Below the pieces are notes generated by a model. It was not told the origin of the DNA and did no database searches. It was given only the letters and a program-made list of their open reading frames with translations. Positions 1 through 4,182 of a stretch of DNA of 4,182 bases are shown in pieces. Location of the stretch: the IMG/VR virus record IMGVR_UViG_2681813261_000023; one strand, given 5' to 3'. This DNA is from a virus (Duplodnaviria; Heunggongvirae; Uroviricota; Caudoviricetes). Made by a program: the position numbers and the translations under genes. Each line of letters opens with the position of its first letter. Position 1 is the stretch's first letter.

Positions 1-135
1 GCAAACATGGGCTGGCAAAAGTGTAGCGGTATTAAGCGCAGCTATTTACATCAGGATCTAAACTAAAGTATTCTTCAGGTGATAAGCCTCTTTTGTTAAC
101 CATCTTACAAAAGTACTTTAATTCGATATCACCTC

Positions 136-435
136 TTACTTTTTTTCTACTTCATCTACAGGTTTCGCAGTATTGATTAAAGCAATAATTGCTGAGTAAA
201 TTTCATTCTGGATTACAAAATCAATAGAGTTAACATTAATTCGTCCATCAATATCTTCTTCTGCGAAGATAGGATCACCATTTTCATCTTTTACACATAG
301 GATTAGAGTTTTAGCCACATCAGTGCATTTCTGGAAATCCTGACCATTTGGACGATGAATAAAGATGATTTCACCCATTACTTCATGTGGTTTTAATTCT
401 GGTTGTAGTTTTTTCTTCAATTCGTTTAAATTCAT
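136..435 (-). CDS. hypothetical acidic protein (99 aa); position after the tube gene suggests a tail assembly chaperone-like protein
   Basis: The ORF track frame 136..447 begins at a TTG. GGAG (445..442) sits 6 nt upstream of ATG 435..433 and is too close to ATG 441, so start 435 is preferred (MNLNELKKKLQ...). The protein is small, Glu/Asp-rich, and its last sense codons form an A_AAA_AAG heptamer. No family motif recognised by eye. Confidence 0.6.
   Translation of the reverse strand: MNLNELKKKLQPELKPHEVMGEIIFIHRPNGQDFQKCTDVAKTLILCVKDENGDPIFAEEDIDGRINVNSIDFVIQNEIYSAIIALINTAKPVDEVEKK
139..145 (-). promoter_or_regulatory. candidate -1 ribosomal frameshift (or transcriptional slippage) site A_AAA_AAG immediately before the stop codon
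   Basis: The minus-strand reading is GAA AAA AAG TAA (147..136). The heptamer A AAA AAG is in the X_XXY_YYZ register of the zero frame (dnaX-type). The -1 frame continues for 35 codons (VRGDIELKYFCKMVNKRGLSPEEYFSLDPDVNSCA) to TAA at 34..32. Confidence 0.25.
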
Positions 436-445
436 TTTCATCTCC

Positions 446-478
446 AATAAAAAAGGGAAAGTTGAGCACCTTCCCTTT
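446..478 (-). terminator. probable rho-independent terminator/attenuator downstream of the tube-like gene
   Basis: On the minus-strand RNA, AAAGGGAAGGU (478..468) pairs with ACUUUCCCUUU (462..452) as an 11-bp stem with one G-U pair around the loop GCUCA. It is immediately followed by UUUAUU (451..446). It starts 8 nt after the TAA stop (489..487) and is directly followed by GGAG and the next start codon. Confidence 0.45.
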
Positions 479-486
479 ATTTATTA

Positions 487-966
487 TTATTCGCCCGATT
501 CTGGTTTTGGAGTAATCAGACCTGAATCAATTGCTTCACCATCAACTGCAAGGGTGAAAGTCTTAGTTACTACTTCATCTTTATCACCACCGATAGTGGT
601 ACTTGAAACAAAGCAGGTATAAATTACAAAGAAACCTTCTTTTTTAGTTGCATCGGTAAAATAGCTTAGTTTTACCTGACAACGTTTCTGATCGTCTGCA
701 AGTTGTTCTAAATTCTGATGTACTGCATTATCTGGTAAGTAGTTAACTGCAAGAGAAATGTCCGGGATTGACTTAGTACCCAATAGCTTACGATCATAAG
801 CATTATTGAATGTTTTTACGCTAATTACAGTACTTTCAAAGCCTGAAGTACTGAAGGTGTTTACCTCTGGTACTTCTACAAAGTCAGTAGCAACTGTTTT
901 ACCAGCACTTGAACCTACTTCTACAGTAAGGTTAGCACCGGAAAAAATATCCATAGCCATAGCCAT
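487..966 (-). CDS. major tail (tube) protein-like protein, 159 aa
   Basis: ORF with ATG 966..964 preceded by AAGGA (980..976) at 9-nt spacing. The N-terminus has three ATGs (MAMAMDIFSG); the third (954..952) matches the start of the paralogue. Sequence patterns (N-terminal beta-strand LTVEV, SLAVNYLPDN...HQNLEQL..., VVTKTFTLAV) resemble, from memory, the N-domain of lambda gpV-type siphovirus tail tube proteins. Size is also appropriate for a tube protein. Confidence 0.75.
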   Translation of the reverse strand: MAMAMDIFSGANLTVEVGSSAGKTVATDFVEVPEVNTFSTSGFESTVISVKTFNNAYDRKLLGTKSIPDISLAVNYLPDNAVHQNLEQLADDQKRCQVKLSYFTDATKKEGFFVIYTCFVSSTTIGGDKDEVVTKTFTLAVDGEAIDSGLITPKPESGE

Positions 967-979
967 AGTTTTATATCCT

Positions 980-1016
980 TATAAGAAAATTTTATTGGAG
1001 TGAATCCGTTCACCCC
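980..1016 (-). terminator. hairpin followed by a U-rich tract between the fiber gene and the tube-like gene (weak intrinsic terminator or RNA processing/stability element)
   Basis: On the minus-strand RNA, GGGGUGAA (1016..1009) pairs with UUCACUCC (1004..997) as an 8-bp stem with one G-U pair around the tetraloop CGGA. It is followed by AAUAAAAUUUUCUU. The U-tract does not abut the stem, hence low confidence. Confidence 0.3.
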
Positions 1017-1024
1017 GTTTATAT

Positions 1025-3676
1025 TTATTTATTATTTAATAGCTGTTGTACTAAATCTTTTAGCTGATTAATTTCTTCTTGTTGGGCTTGAATAGCTCCC
1101 ATCAAGTCCATCACTATTGGATTTAAATCAACACGTGGATGATCACGAGTGACAATCTCCCCTTCTATTTCAACTGTTTCTTCATCATGCTTAATGTACT
1201 GCGGAGCAGTCAACTCAGCATCTTCGGCGATAACACCAAACCTAACCCTTTCTTGTTCATCATCCTTGTAGATAAACGTTACTAAATCTTGTGACATTAT
1301 CCGATCTAATGCTTCAACTGGATTTGCTGGAGTTATGTCTCTTTTAAACTCACGACCTGATGTACCTTGAGCTTGCATTACTAACCATCCAAACCATGTT
1401 GTACCGTTCCCGCCTCGTACTCTTAAAGTACCACCACCGTCTATCTGAAGCTGAGAGCGATTTGCCCCTGGGTGTCTTTGCATGTGCAATAAAGGGGAAT
1501 ATTTTTCACTATAGTTAATACCTGAGTCACCTGGCCCTGCATACATACCGTTAAAGGTGATGGTATTGGCATCTGTCGGTCCCGAAACAGCGGTATTAGT
1601 CATCCATCCTGATTGAACATCAGTTAGGATCGTTCCAGTCGGCCCTTTTAGCCCCCATAGTTTATCCTCTGCACCATTTTCAGAAATAAAAAGGGTGAGA
1701 TCAGCCTGTCCAGTCTGTCCCATCGTTTTACCAACCCGAAAACCACCAGATATTTCAGTTGATGTACCAATGTTGCATATCGAACGAATACGCCCTCCAG
1801 TTACATAACTACCAATTGCCGTAGAGGAAGGGGAAGAAGCAATAACATCCCATTGAGGACTAACTGAAGTACGACTACTCAGCAAGTTTTCAACCCAGCG
1901 TTTGGTAGTCGCGTCAGAATCAGAGACAGGATCTCCTGCTAAAGAAGTTGCACCCGTAGGACGAATCGCAGGCCATAACTCAGCCTGAGTCTTAACACCA
2001 GTACCGCCCTGCGGAATTGCTAATGCTTTCCAGCCAGTGAAAGCACCCGCAATATATGTAGCTGAACCCCATTGCCCTCCATCATAAACCACTAATGCAG
2101 CGGAAGAATCAGCGGATTTAATAGTTGTTAAATTACTACCTTGATTAAAGCGATCCACCTGAAAGTTTAGGCGAGCACTCAAAGCATCTGTAGCCCCTGT
2201 CCCCCCCTGACCTATACCTAAAGCAATCCATCCAGTACCAGTACTTGCACCCCATGCCCCGTTATCCTGAATTCGGATACGGTTAGTCAGGTCATTACTC
2301 ATCAGATCGGTGTACGTAGCACCCTGAGTCAAACGGTTCACCTGTAGGTTAGTACGTGCTGTAGAGAGACTGGATAGATCAGAAAGGTTACTCGCTTTCT
2401 TCATGGAAGCGGAATCAAGGGAAGTAATACTGTCAGCTAAAGCCGTTACCTCTGCATCTACTTCATCCATTGAGTAAACAGCAAGGTTAATACGTGCTTC
2501 TTCCACGTCCCCCAGATCACTTAGATTACCTGCTATCGTAAGCTGGGCATCATCTGTAACCTTCCCTAAGCCAACATCAGTACTGGTAAGTACTACATCC
2601 TCACTGAGTACATGACCGTTGACCATACGTGTATCAGGTACTGAACCTGTATCTTCACTACTCAGTACTACATTTTCACTAAGTACATGACCGTTCACTG
2701 TACGCGTGTCAGGTACTGAACCTGTATCTTCACTACTCAGTACTATATCTTCACTGAGTACATGACCATTAACTGTCCGTGTATCTGGTACAGAGCCGGT
2801 ATCAGTACTGGTAAGTACTACATCCTCACTTAGAGGCTTACCATTCACAGTACGTGTATCAGGTACTGAACCTGTATCTTCACTGTTCAGTACTAAATTG
2901 GCCGTGAGTGCATGGCCGTTGATGGTACGTGTAAGGGGTACGTATCGCCCGTCCATCTGTGTAGCGGTATATATGCGTGTCCAGGCGGTTGTAGCGTTCT
3001 TTGCATAGATACTTAGAGTACCCGTCTTTGTCATCGCAAGAGAACTTACAGTAGTGCCATCTACAAGCCCTACTCCCATCAGATCCGCCCCGGCAGGATT
3101 GCCTGCTTGAGATGATGGTACTTTGATGAAGCTGTTACCCGTAGGTACTGATGGTGAGTACTGAGGTACATCCGTAGTGTTCGAACCTAAACCGTAGTCC
3201 CCCTGATAGATTGGCGATAGTGCGTTAATGGTCATTGCACGTGCGATCACATCATGTGGGGCAAAACTGTATGCCTTGGTTACTACTGAACCTTTATCAC
3301 CGTCCAACTTATAAGAGGTGATATAACCATTCACCATCGCATAAGTAATGGTATTTTCATCCTTATTCATCTGGTACTGAATGATGATCTGGAAAAGCTG
3401 CTGAGACTTAGCGGCATTATCCAAGAATTGATGTGTAGGATCATCAGGTAGGTAGTTAACTACAATATCAAATGGTGCTACTGATTTATCAGATAGTAGT
3501 ACTGTCCTGTAATCACTATCATACGTTTCAAAATTATTTGCTTCTGAATTTATTGTTAAGGTTGGAAAAGTATTAATCTGTTTAATTACTACATTGCCTG
3601 CTCCCTGTGGTGTTCTGTTACCAATATCAGCATTATACTGTACTGATAATTCTCTTCCTGAGAAAATATCACTCAT
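1025..3676 (-). CDS. tail fiber-like protein (883 aa) with N-terminal tail-tube-like domain, tandem fiber repeats and C-terminal intramolecular chaperone (peptidase S74-like) domain
   Basis: Uninterrupted 2,652-nt ORF. ATG 3676..3674 is preceded by AAGGA (3689..3685) at 8-nt spacing. Residues 1-145 align at about 30% identity with the adjacent 159-aa protein. Residues 249-373 are five tandem 25-aa repeats (TRTVNGHVLSEDVVLSSEDTGSVPD-like). Residues 374-575 carry recurring GGTG...AR.NL.V motifs typical of phage fiber shafts. Residues 771-883 (GTSGREFKRDITP...FGVIAEDAE...VDLNPIVMDLMGAIQAQQEEINQLK) match the pattern I recall for the self-cleaving C-terminal chaperone of tailspikes and fibers (Ser, then Lys five residues later, ...FGVIAqe..., C-terminal helical tail). 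Confidence 0.85.
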   Translation of the reverse strand: MSDIFSGRELSVQYNADIGNRTPQGAGNVVIKQINTFPTLTINSEANNFETYDSDYRTVLLSDKSVAPFDIVVNYLPDDPTHQFLDNAAKSQQLFQIIIQYQMNKDENTITYAMVNGYITSYKLDGDKGSVVTKAYSFAPHDVIARAMTINALSPIYQGDYGLGSNTTDVPQYSPSVPTGNSFIKVPSSQAGNPAGADLMGVGLVDGTTVSSLAMTKTGTLSIYAKNATTAWTRIYTATQMDGRYVPLTRTINGHALTANLVLNSEDTGSVPDTRTVNGKPLSEDVVLTSTDTGSVPDTRTVNGHVLSEDIVLSSEDTGSVPDTRTVNGHVLSENVVLSSEDTGSVPDTRMVNGHVLSEDVVLTSTDVGLGKVTDDAQLTIAGNLSDLGDVEEARINLAVYSMDEVDAEVTALADSITSLDSASMKKASNLSDLSSLSTARTNLQVNRLTQGATYTDLMSNDLTNRIRIQDNGAWGASTGTGWIALGIGQGGTGATDALSARLNFQVDRFNQGSNLTTIKSADSSAALVVYDGGQWGSATYIAGAFTGWKALAIPQGGTGVKTQAELWPAIRPTGATSLAGDPVSDSDATTKRWVENLLSSRTSVSPQWDVIASSPSSTAIGSYVTGGRIRSICNIGTSTEISGGFRVGKTMGQTGQADLTLFISENGAEDKLWGLKGPTGTILTDVQSGWMTNTAVSGPTDANTITFNGMYAGPGDSGINYSEKYSPLLHMQRHPGANRSQLQIDGGGTLRVRGGNGTTWFGWLVMQAQGTSGREFKRDITPANPVEALDRIMSQDLVTFIYKDDEQERVRFGVIAEDAELTAPQYIKHDEETVEIEGEIVTRDHPRVDLNPIVMDLMGAIQAQQEEINQLKDLVQQLLNNK
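1028..1357 (-). other. C-terminal intramolecular chaperone / autoproteolytic domain (aa 774-883), peptidase S74-like
   Basis: The putative catalytic Ser773 (TCA, 1360..1358) and Lys778 (AAA, 1345..1343) have the Ser-x4-Lys spacing I recall for endosialidase-type chaperone domains. They are followed by ITP...ALD...FIYKDD...RFGVIAEDAE...VDLNPIV..L.GAIQA.QEEINQLK, resembling the family consensus. Confidence 0.7.
1952..2266 (-). repeat. divergent internal duplication of a Gly/Trp-rich GGTG module (aa 471-575)
   Basis: The peptide segments DNGAWGASTGTGWIALGIGQGGTGATDALSARLNF and DGGQWGSATYIAGAFTGWKALAIPQGGTGVKTQAELWPAI align. DNA similarity is low, so this is an old duplication seen at protein level only. 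Confidence 0.45.
2558..2932 (-). repeat. five in-frame tandem repeats of 75 bp (25 aa) inside the fiber gene
   Basis: A 40-nt block (gtatcaggtactgaacctgtatcttcactactcagtacta) recurs on the plus strand at about 2631, 2706 and 2857, with a diverged copy at 2781. A second block (tactggtaagtactacatcctcact) recurs at 2581 and 2806, i.e. 3 x 75 apart. The encoded peptide units are residues 249-273, 274-298, 299-323, 324-348 and 349-373. Confidence 0.9.
3242..3676 (-). other. N-terminal tail-tube-like domain of the 883-aa protein (aa 1-145), paralogous to the 159-aa protein
   Basis: Pairwise alignment by eye: MSDIFSGRELSV vs MDIFSGANLTV; NTF; Y..LL.KS.PD; VNYLPDD vs VNYLPDN; HQ.L; GDKGSVVTKAYSFA vs GDKDEVVTKTFTLA. 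The VNYLPD codons are nearly identical at DNA level (3443..3460 vs 730..747, 16 of 18 nt). Confidence 0.65.
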
Positions 3677-3693
3677 CCTTTATATCCTTTTAG

Positions 3694-4086: not shown

Positions 4087-4182
4087 ATTAGTAGTCCTCT
4101 GCAAATGAAGCACCAGCAGAATGGATTTGCCCCTATATTTCCAGACATCTGTTATCACTTAACCCATTACAAGCCCGCTGCC

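What the first reader, a model, noticed from the sequence alone, without database searches (positions are those of the whole stretch)
2558..2932. Five tandem 75-bp in-frame repeats in the fiber shaft
The units are similar enough at DNA level that long blocks are exactly repeated with a 75-bp period, and different units are mosaics of two block types. This suggests recent expansion or contraction by replication slippage or recombination. Each unit adds a 25-aa segment (TRTVNGHVLSEDVVLSSEDTGSVPD-like), reminiscent of the short repeats in side tail fiber proteins. Copy number is therefore a likely source of fiber-length variation between related elements, and a trap for short-read assembly.
Basis: seen in the sequence. 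Interest (0 to 1): 0.6.

Follow-up and report, generated by a model that had tools for sequence, protein, structure and literature searches.

The report
Repeat array in tube-anchored tail fiber
The five 75-bp repeats are real and encode a variable-length stalk in a phage tail-fiber gene of a decaying Shigella sonnei prophage; the repeats are ordinary for tail fibers, but the fiber is unusual in starting with a copy of the tail-tube protein.

Summary
Window 2558-2932 holds exactly five in-register 75-bp units. Match at lag 75 is 0.74 against 0.28 in codon shuffles (z=17). The units are in frame in an 883-aa minus-strand ORF (1025-3676), as residues 249-373, consensus TRTVNGxxLSxDxVLxSxDTGSVPD. 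The two-block mosaic is real.

Homologues carry 0-16 units, always starting at residue ~246-252. The closest non-sonnei relative has 3 units and lacks window units 3 and 4. One S. sonnei protein form has 4, though this may be an assembly collapse.

The core motif is a generic fiber-shaft module shared with Vibrio, Aeromonas and P2-gpH-like fibers. It has no Pfam family.

The more unusual point is the protein itself. Residues 1-150 have a tail-tube fold and are 31% identical to the adjacent 159-aa tube protein. A beta domain follows, then the array, fiber modules and a C-terminal S74 chaperone domain. This layout, always followed by a short tube gene, defines ~100 Enterobacteriaceae prophage protein clusters. 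Only one distant relative exists among 50,697 phage records.

In S. sonnei the prophage is IS2-disrupted and some strains carry pseudogenised copies. The repeat is ordinary. The tube-anchored fiber is a plausible new variant.

The parts
2558..2932 (-). Array of five in-frame 75-bp (25-aa) shaft units, aa 249-373
   Evidence: TRF period 75; lag-75 z=17; units in codon register
1025..3676 (-). 883-aa ORF: tail-tube-like N-terminus + beta domain + repeat array + fiber modules + S74 chaperone (stop included)
   Evidence: 100% identical to S. sonnei proteins P0001/P0121/P0122
3227..3676 (-). Tail-tube-fold domain (aa 1-150)
   Evidence: phrog_158 E 1.3e-16; 31% id, E 2e-20 to adjacent tube protein; Foldseek hits to lambda gpV, 80alpha, YDC107, NF5, monocin tubes, prob 1.0, TMt up to 0.68
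2957..3139 (-). [quoted passage not shown]
   Evidence: AF2 pLDDT ~83, five strands; full-length gpV 7t4f_A aligns over 245 columns
2240..2404 (-). 165-bp segment (aa 425-479) present once here but exactly tandemly duplicated in other S. sonnei assemblies
1973..1975 (-). Codon W568, TGG here, TGA in pseudogenised S. sonnei copies (622/567-aa products)
1028..1360 (-). Peptidase_S74 intramolecular chaperone domain (aa 773-883) with Ser773/Lys778
   Evidence: Pfam 34.1 bits vs cutoff 22; S773 and K778 invariant in 33-sequence alignment; 8hqz_d LtfB match E 2.8e-40
487..966 (-). 159-aa tail tube protein, paralog of the long ORF's N-terminus
   Evidence: Pfam Phage_tail_3 34 bits vs 24.2; phrog_158; follows the long ORF in all 10 related loci
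452..478 (-). Intrinsic-terminator-like hairpin plus T-run just after the short tube gene
   Evidence: 11-bp stem, -17.5 kcal/mol, z -4.5
136..447 (-). Tail assembly chaperone (gpG-like); likely true start ATG at 435 (99 aa as in relatives)
   Evidence: phrog_344 E 1.6e-6; Phage_TAC_13 below cutoff; 99-aa homologues in L001-L007
3694..4086 (-). 130-aa ORF of unknown family in the neck/terminator position upstream of the long ORF
   Evidence: conserved 130-aa gene in L002, L005-L007, L010; no Pfam/PHROG/NCBIfam hit
4122..4182 (.). Right end of an IS2 copy that lies beyond the window edge
   Evidence: 100% identity to IS2 in many records; absent at this site in S. sonnei contig L010
1..46 (.). 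Rearrangement junction: gpT-like ORF cut after ~19 codons and joined to a lambdoid-prophage fragment

Best explanation
The array is a stack of five 25-residue shaft modules in a lateral tail-fiber protein of a siphovirus-type prophage.

Inferred role of the units:
- Each unit (core TRxVNGxxLxxDxxLxxxDxG plus an SVPD/V joint) adds one fixed increment to a trimeric stalk.
- The stalk links a conserved virion anchor (aa 1-248) to exchangeable distal fiber modules and a self-cleaving S74 folding chaperone.
- Because the units are in frame and share 26-37-nt identical blocks, unequal crossing-over, slippage or gene conversion between units adds, removes or reshuffles whole units without breaking the frame. 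Related phages therefore differ in stalk length.

Inferred role of the anchor:
- The anchor is a duplicated tail-tube protein (tube fold plus an outer beta domain, like lambda gpV).
- The long protein probably joins or forms a tube ring through its N-terminus. Six C-terminal chains per ring would give two trimeric fibers.
- The adjacent 159-aa paralog builds the rest of the tube.

In S. sonnei the prophage is IS-disrupted and cannot make virions, so the array here is a relic evolving nearly neutrally.

Shown: the repeat, its frame, the domain order, the paralogy, the tube fold, copy-number differences and prophage decay. Inferred: the trimeric beta-structured shaft, a length increment per unit, ring incorporation and stoichiometry.
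For: Repeat and frame.

Fiber identity:
- Tail-fiber PHROGs and Pfam Peptidase_S74.
- Ser773/Lys778 are invariant.
- Match to DT57C LtfB, 8hqz.

Unit is a fiber module:
- tblastn hits in annotated tail fibers of Vibrio, Aeromonas and Microbacterium phages.
- The same core motif recurs 6-14 times, at 25-66-aa spacings, in unrelated giant fiber proteins, one with a P2-gpH-like N-terminus.

Copy-number variation:
- 0-14 units in 120 homologues and 16 in Cedecea.
- 3 in L009 and 4 in S. sonnei P0129.
- The array always begins at aa 246-252.

Recombination: mosaic units and breakpoints inside identical blocks.

Oligomer-dependent fold: the AF2 monomer model has pLDDT 28-42 across aa 240-490, while the tube and S74 domains are confident.

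Anchor:
- 31% identity to the adjacent tube protein.
- Foldseek tube hits.
- All 120 homologues share aa 1-248 at 42-100% identity.
- About 106 representative clusters score E<1e-30, nearly all 700-1560 aa with the module at residues 1-262.
- The long ORF is followed by the short tube gene in 10 of 10 loci.

Prophage context and decay.
Against: - No structure or experiment shows that the units form a trimeric shaft. No solved structure matches the unit convincingly: the best is E 0.095 to a gp12-type short fiber, 9f4b.
- Pfam reports a GldM_2nd hit above its cutoff on the repeat region (32.4 bits). This could mean a beta-sandwich-like fold rather than a fiber shaft.
- Within S. sonnei the number is almost fixed at five. 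The single 4-unit form may be an assembly artefact, so ongoing variation in this lineage is not demonstrated.
- Units 3 and 4 differ at 8 of 75 nt, so the last duplication is not recent.
- Ring incorporation, fiber number per ring and position along the tail are untested.
- The long protein's N-terminus hits no Pfam tube family directly.
Confidence: 0.7

Rival explanations
1. The five-copy count is an assembly artefact, with a collapsed or expanded repeat, and the real locus has another number.
For: Exact blocks of 26-37 nt recur with a 75-bp period. A de Bruijn assembler with k<=37 could loop or skip here. An 858-aa form with exactly one unit missing exists on 2 contigs.
Against: Every pair of units differs at 8 or more of 75 positions, so reads of 100 nt or more resolve them. 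The 883-aa, five-unit form occurs on more than 230 independent S. sonnei contigs, including one of 4,988,504 bp. The five-unit pseudogene form occurs on a 4,984,129-bp contig.
Confidence: 0.04
2. The units are not a trimeric shaft. They form autonomous beta-sandwich or Ig-like adhesion domains, about two units per domain, that decorate the tail and bind surface carbohydrate, as the Ig-like domains of gpV, pb6 and gp17.1* do.
For: Pfam GldM_2nd (a beta-sandwich domain) is hit at E 1.4e-7, 32.4 bits against a cutoff of 24.4, on aa 20-72 of the repeat segment. TRF also sees a 150-bp super-period. The array follows directly after a gpV-like tube plus beta-domain module.
Against: AF2 with an alignment gives pLDDT about 30-40 and almost no secondary structure for the array, which is unlike autonomous Ig-like domains. 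Odd unit numbers (1, 3, 5) are common. The same core motif occurs in classical trimeric fibers and upstream of an S74 trimerisation chaperone. The GldM hit is probably driven by repeat bias: the ncbifam GldM model scores 20.5 against a cutoff of 180.
Confidence: 0.1
3. The long protein is not confined to one ring. It co-polymerises with the short tube protein along the whole tail, as SPP1 gp17.1/gp17.1* do, giving a tail bristling with fibers. The repeat then sets how far they project.
For: Both genes have the same translation-initiation context (AAGGATATAAA 8-9 nt before the ATG, read). Both lie upstream of the strong terminator at 452-478. The N-terminal domain is a close paralog of the tube protein.
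Against: A separate short paralog is conserved in every locus, which argues for division of labour. T5 offers a precedent for a dedicated tube-paralog ring at the fiber-anchoring position (PMC10038345). Dozens of 770-residue trimeric fibers per tail would be costly. No data on stoichiometry exist.
Confidence: 0.15

Closest known systems
Ur-lambda side tail fiber Stf (PMC12617516)
   Same: A trimeric lateral fiber on a lambda-like flexible tail. Several chains per fiber are tethered to the tube by flexible linkers. It has a modular shaft and an exchangeable distal part.
   Different: Stf attaches non-covalently. Twelve N-terminal six-stranded beta-sheet domains form a collar around the gpV/gpM junction. 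Here the N-terminus is itself a tube-protein paralog, and no stf-like gene lies after the gpJ-like gene in L005/L007 within the 10 kb examined.
T5 p140 / p132 / pb1 and DT57C LtfC/LtfA/LtfB (PMC10038345, PMC10713586, PDB 8hqz)
   Same: A duplicated tube protein (p140) forms a dedicated ring where the lateral fibers are anchored. The fibers end in an S74 chaperone. The window protein matches LtfB at aa 563-607 and 767-878.
   Different: In T5 the ring, the collar (p132) and the fiber (pb1) are three separate proteins, and p140 lacks a decoration domain. Here the tube paralog, outer beta domain and fiber are one polypeptide.
Tail tube proteins with C-terminal decoration: lambda gpV, T5 pb6, YSD1, SPP1 gp17.1* (PMC8718954)
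   Same: An N-terminal tube fold followed by an outward-facing beta domain. Lambda gpV aligns over 245 columns.
   Different: Known decorations are single Ig-like or FN3 domains. None carries a fiber of about 630 residues with an S74 chaperone.
Fiber shafts built from short sequence repeats (P2 gpH-like fibers with TRKVNGKxLxxDIxL motifs; gp12-type short fiber 9f4b; adenovirus fiber shaft, from my own knowledge)
   Same: A short beta-rich motif is repeated in frame, and the repeat number scales shaft length. The same core motif is found in such fibers.
   Different: This family uses the tightest spacing (25 aa), placed directly after the virion anchor. No curated family or solved structure covers the unit. 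The adenovirus comparison is by analogy only.

Membership tests
Tail fibers/spikes with C-terminal Peptidase_S74 intramolecular chaperone | C-terminal domain matching Pfam PF13884 above the gathering score | tested here: met
   34.1 bits vs cutoff 22, aa 774-822
Tail fibers/spikes with C-terminal Peptidase_S74 intramolecular chaperone | Catalytic Ser and Lys five residues apart at the cleavage site | tested here: met
   S773 and K778 are invariant in 33 aligned homologues. They align to the DT57C LtfB motif TSGIEYKK.
Tail fibers/spikes with C-terminal Peptidase_S74 intramolecular chaperone | Trimerisation-dependent autocleavage releasing the chaperone | not testable with these tools
   Needs protein expression or virion mass spectrometry.
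Siphovirus tail tube protein (lambda gpV-type fold) | Tube-protein fold (bent beta-sandwich with flanking helix) | tested here: met
   AF2 model of aa 1-262 has pLDDT 74.9. The top 22 Foldseek PDB hits are phage or tailocin tube proteins (80alpha, lambda gpV, SaPI1, NF5, YDC107, Sf11, monocin), followed by Hcp.
Siphovirus tail tube protein (lambda gpV-type fold) | Sequence match to a curated tube family | tested here: inconclusive
   No Pfam or NCBIfam tube model hits the long ORF. However, phrog_158 'major tail protein' scores E 1.3e-16, and identity to the adjacent Phage_tail_3 protein is 31%.
Siphovirus tail tube protein (lambda gpV-type fold) | Gene lies between neck genes and the tail assembly chaperone / tape measure | tested here: met
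   Gene order in L005-L007, L009, L020 and the window.
Siphovirus tail tube protein (lambda gpV-type fold) | Assembles into hexameric rings of the tail | not testable with these tools
   Needs a virion structure or a multimer prediction.
Pfam Phage_fiber_2 (PF03406) or other curated tail-fiber repeat | Unit matches the curated repeat profile | tested here: not met
   No such hit at E<=10 on the repeat segment or E<=0.1 on the whole protein. Only PHROG tail-fiber families phrog_17472, phrog_23008 and phrog_23426 cover it.
Simple-sequence contingency (phase-variation) locus | Unit length not divisible by three, so copy changes switch the frame | tested here: not met
   The unit is 75 bp, and all variants keep the frame.
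Anti-phage defence system component | Match to a PADLOC model | tested here: not met
   No hit for any of the four ORFs.

The most novel reading that the evidence does not exclude
This protein family represents a third, undescribed way of mounting lateral fibers on a flexible phage tail. Lambda uses a collar made of fiber N-termini, and T5 uses a separate collar protein around a tube-paralog ring. Here a duplicated tube subunit is covalently fused to the fiber. One hexameric ring would directly display two trimeric, S74-matured fibers, and the 25-aa repeat array would act as an evolvable length adjuster next to the anchor.
Probability: 0.5. Interest if true: 0.6.

Novelty: new variant of a known kind. 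Interest (0 to 1): 0.4.

Why it matters
The repeat array is a clean natural example of how phage fiber length is tuned in whole-unit steps by recombination. It is also a practical warning for short-read assemblies of S. sonnei prophage regions. The surrounding protein matters more. If a tube paralog really carries the fiber covalently, it gives a simple, genetically compact anchor for engineering receptor-binding fibers onto siphovirus tails or F-type tailocins. It would also define a temperate-phage lineage of Enterobacteriaceae that has essentially no cultured or structurally studied member.

Tried and rejected
- megablast of the window against phages and 5,426 complete E. coli genomes matched only the IS2 end and a 48-nt lambdoid fragment. 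Distant blastn of the N-terminal module plus array found only 2 E. coli genomes at about 67% identity.
- Sequence searches of PDB gave nothing useful for the short tube protein or the N-terminal profile: no hit for the former, one chance hit at E 0.4 for the latter. The unit profile gave only E 0.095 to 9f4b.
- The full-length AF2 monomer was uninformative for the array, with pLDDT about 30-40. It was not used for fold search.
- The Pfam GldM_2nd and ThiS-like hits on the repeat were judged to be repeat-bias artefacts.
- Five literature searches for a tube-fiber fusion found nothing, and one search for PDB entry 9f4b did not identify its paper. The library lacks most subscription journals, so absence is not proof.
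- DNA for the 4-unit S. sonnei form could not be obtained.
- I first read window 1-48 as the 3' end of a tfa gene. This was wrong. It matches a segment upstream of an AraC-type regulator, and the tfa fragment lies next to the IS2 end in that E. coli genome.
- A defence-system reading was rejected. A phase-variation reading was rejected because the unit is divisible by three.
Full report
OBSERVATION

The window encodes an 883-aa ORF on the minus strand, 1025-3676. Residues 249-373 are five consecutive 25-residue units:
- TRTINGHALTANLVLNSEDTGSVPD
- TRTVNGKPLSEDVVLTSTDTGSVPD
- TRTVNGHVLSEDIVLSSEDTGSVPD
- TRTVNGHVLSENVVLSSEDTGSVPD
- TRMVNGHVLSEDVVLTSTDVGLGKV

Tandem Repeats Finder reports period 75, 4.1 copies and 80% matches, plus a 150-bp super-period.

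Units share 48-67 of 75 nucleotides. The match fraction at lag 75 is 0.737, against 0.276 +/- 0.027 in 2000 codon shuffles of the same ORF (z=17). No other lag between 60 and 90 exceeds 0.33.

Exact in-register blocks of 37 nt (units 3/4), 34 nt (units 1/4) and 30 nt (units 2/5) exist. The 3' halves fall into two types, units 1, 3 and 4 against units 2 and 5. The observation, including the mosaic of two block types, is therefore correct. The only correction is that the coding strand is minus.

WHAT THE GENE IS

Pfam finds a C-terminal Peptidase_S74 intramolecular chaperone domain (34.1 bits, cutoff 22). PHROGs finds tail-fiber families over aa 388-879 and 'major tail protein' phrog_158 over aa 2-150. 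The S74 Ser773 and Lys778 are invariant in 33 homologues. The only solved relative by sequence is the DT57C lateral fiber protein LtfB (8hqz), which covers aa 563-607 and 767-878.

The first 137 residues are 31% identical (E 2e-20) to the next gene downstream. That gene is a 159-aa protein matching Pfam Phage_tail_3, a tail tube protein.

An AlphaFold2 model of aa 1-262, built from 26 homologues, has pLDDT 74.9. Its top 22 Foldseek hits in PDB are tube proteins of siphophages and F-type tailocins: 80alpha, lambda gpV, SaPI1, NF5, YDC107, Sf11 and monocin (probability 1.0, TM-score on the target up to 0.68). Hcp proteins follow. Full-length lambda gpV (tube plus Ig-like domain) aligns over 245 columns.

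The architecture is therefore:
- tube-fold domain, aa 1-150
- low-confidence linker, aa 151-179
- beta domain, aa 180-240
- five-unit array, aa 249-373
- helical and GGTG-type fiber modules
- distal domain
- S74 chaperone, aa 773-883 (coordinates)

WHERE IT COMES FROM

The protein is 100% identical to Shigella sonnei proteins (P0001). The cluster has 92 distinct member sequences, all from S. sonnei among those read. The 883-aa forms were seen on 131, 101 and 3 contigs, one of them 4.99 Mb long.

Intact relatives in E. coli (L005-L007) show a complete siphovirus-type morphogenesis module, in this order:
- small terminase and lambda-type large terminase
- portal
- fused S78 protease-capsid
- 107-aa and 130-aa neck genes
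- the long tube-fiber gene
- the short tube gene
- chaperone pair
- 736-aa tape measure
- distal tail genes
- a 1067-aa gpJ-like tip protein

No other long fiber gene follows within the region fetched.

In S. sonnei the element is degraded. IS2 sits upstream of the 130-aa gene in the window and in L001-L004, but not in L010. The tape measure is truncated by another IS. The window's own left end is a junction to a lambdoid-prophage fragment.

The lineage is almost unknown among cultured phages. Of 50,697 phage records, only PQ671644 ('DCP80') has relatives: the N-terminal module at 25% identity, the capsid at 29% and the short tube protein at 40%. It has the same gene order. Only 2 of 5,426 complete E. 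coli genomes show even distant DNA similarity.

COPY NUMBER IN RELATIVES

All 120 listed homologues share aa 1-248 at 42-100% identity, and they are mosaic downstream of that point. A profile of the unit finds 0 to 14 units per protein, the first always starting at residue 246-252. Reading the Cedecea lapagei gene directly shows 16 units in perfect 25-aa register. These share only 29-62 of 75 nt, so the array is old and diverged.

In eight further species-representative genomes the count is 0-4. They belong to Scandinavium, Pluralibacter, Buttiauxella, Phytobacter, Pseudescherichia, Enterobacter and Pseudocitrobacter. Identity between units is 40-55 of 75 nt. The window's 67/75 pair is thus unusually similar.

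The closest non-sonnei relative (L009/P0003) is 95% identical over the first 932 nt and has three units. These correspond to window units 1, 2 and 5, so it lacks exactly units 3 and 4. Its unit 2 has window-unit-2 ends and a unit-5-type middle, which points to exchange between units.

Within S. sonnei, P0129 (WP_052975044.1, 858 aa, 2 contigs) differs from the window protein by one substitution and a clean 25-aa deletion. The deletion fuses units 3 and 4 inside their 37-nt identical block. This is either a true unequal-exchange product or a k-mer collapse in a short-read assembly. I could not get its DNA.

S. sonnei itself is essentially fixed at five.

WHAT THE UNIT IS

No Pfam or NCBIfam repeat family covers it. 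Phage_fiber_2 is not hit. The Pfam GldM_2nd hit (32.4 bits) is probably repeat bias, because the corresponding NCBIfam model scores 20.5 against a cutoff of 180.

tblastn finds the unit in annotated tail-fiber genes of Vibrio, Aeromonas and Microbacterium phages. The exhaustive profile search shows unrelated proteins of 438-2102 aa matching only the unit part of the profile, in 6-21 stretches. In these the core TRKVNGKELxxDIxLTAxDV recurs at spacings of 25-66 aa or more. One of them has a P2-gpH-like N-terminus.

The best PDB hit of a unit profile is a gp12-type short tail fiber, 9f4b (TRRINGKTLDNDITITNND), at E 0.095, which is weak. The full-length AF2 monomer has pLDDT 28-42 over aa 240-490, while the tube and S74 domains are confident. 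That pattern is what oligomer-dependent fiber shafts give, and it argues against autonomous Ig-like domains.

I therefore read the unit as a generic fiber-shaft module used here at its tightest spacing. The trimeric beta-structured shaft and a fixed rise per unit are inferences.

HOW IT MOST LIKELY WORKS

Established knowledge of S74 fibers is that the C-terminal domain drives trimer folding and then cleaves itself off. The conserved Ser/Lys pair supports the same here. The tube-fold N-terminus, its conservation as the only invariant part of the family, and the universal pairing with a short tube paralog (10 of 10 loci) suggest that the long protein enters the tail as a tube subunit. The fiber would thus be anchored covalently. 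A hexameric ring would give six chains, enough for two trimers, with the 30-residue low-confidence linker absorbing the symmetry mismatch.

Known solutions differ. In Ur-lambda, twelve Stf N-terminal domains form a collar at the gpV/gpM junction, with three collar domains per trimer joined by ~10-residue linkers (PMC12617516). In T5, a tube paralog ring (p140) is wrapped by a p132 dodecamer that holds three pb1 fibers (PMC10038345). A review of major tail proteins lists only Ig-like or FN3 decorations on tube proteins (PMC8718954). Five text searches found no description of a tube-fiber fusion. The library is incomplete, so this is not proof of novelty.

It is open whether the long protein forms one dedicated ring or co-polymerises along the tail. 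Both genes share the same ribosome-binding context (read). Both also lie upstream of a strong terminator-like hairpin at 452-478.

STATE IN S. SONNEI

The window carries the intact allele. Other assemblies carry TGG to TGA at W568: 567-aa products on 22 contigs. On 15 contigs, including a 4.98-Mb one, there is in addition an exact 165-bp tandem duplication of window 2240-2404. Together with the IS2 insertions, this shows a decaying prophage. The array has no present function in this host and is a relic.

VERDICT

An in-frame shaft repeat with variable copy number is an ordinary feature of phage fibers. The added value is that the fiber belongs to a coherent family with no structural or experimental study. 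The family comprises about 106 representative clusters at E<1e-30, nearly all 700-1560 aa with the module at residues 1-262. Its anchor is a duplicated tail-tube protein. I rate this a new variant of a known kind, of moderate interest.

Noticed in passing
window 2240-2404 (aa 425-479); L001 11273-11602: This 165-bp segment of the fiber gene occurs once in the window. It is an exact tandem duplication in other S. sonnei assemblies: 15 contigs, including one of 4.98 Mb. This is a second, very recent in-frame repeat polymorphism in the same gene.
   Followed up: yes
window 1973-1975 (codon W568): TGG in the window is TGA in other S. sonnei strains. The change splits the gene into 622 + 286 aa products, or 567 aa without the duplication (22 contigs). 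The nonsense allele also occurs without the duplication (P0123).
   Followed up: yes
window 4122-4182: This is the right end of an IS2 copy, 36 nt upstream of the 130-aa ORF. S. sonnei contig L010 has the same intact fiber gene without this IS2, so the insertion is polymorphic.
   Followed up: partly
window 1-46: This is a rearrangement junction. The gpT-like ORF after the chaperone is cut after about 19 codons and joined to 48 nt. In E. coli DSM 103263 that sequence lies about 250 nt upstream of an AraC-type regulator gene, and in phage mEp332 about 240 nt upstream of a transcriptional-regulator gene; phages ev099 and PhiR70_1 also match. Other S. sonnei contigs continue with gpT-like and truncated tape-measure genes instead. 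The origin of the junction is unresolved.
   Followed up: partly
window 452-478 (minus strand): A strong terminator-like hairpin (11-bp stem, -17.5 kcal/mol, z -4.5, T-run) lies immediately after the short tube gene and before the chaperone gene. A weaker hairpin without a clear T-run follows the long gene (about 990-1015).
   Followed up: partly
window 3677-3690 and 967-981 (minus strand): The long and short tube paralogs have the same translation-initiation context, AAGGATATAAA 8-9 nt before the ATG. This suggests the duplication included the ribosome-binding site.
   Followed up: no
L008 (PQ671644.1 'Escherichia phage DCP80') 1-16768: The record is labelled Straboviridae/Gaprivervirus (141 kb). 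It nevertheless contains a siphovirus-type module (terminase, portal, capsid fusion, 698-aa tube-like protein, 745-aa protein, 164-aa tube, chaperones, tape measure) distantly related to this prophage lineage. It may be a chimeric or mislabelled assembly.
   Followed up: no
L005 16317-16937, L006 16196-16936, L007 15249-15869: A reverse-strand DUF6216 gene sits between the tape-measure gene and the distal tail genes in the intact E. coli relatives. By position it looks like a moron or accessory gene.
   Followed up: no
L020 (Cedecea lapagei) 3754-4953: A 16-unit array in perfect 25-aa register alternates between two unit types (TRTVNGKALSSNITL.. and TATINGKVVKDNPVL..). This gives a 150-bp super-period and is the longest array seen in the family.
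   Followed up: partly
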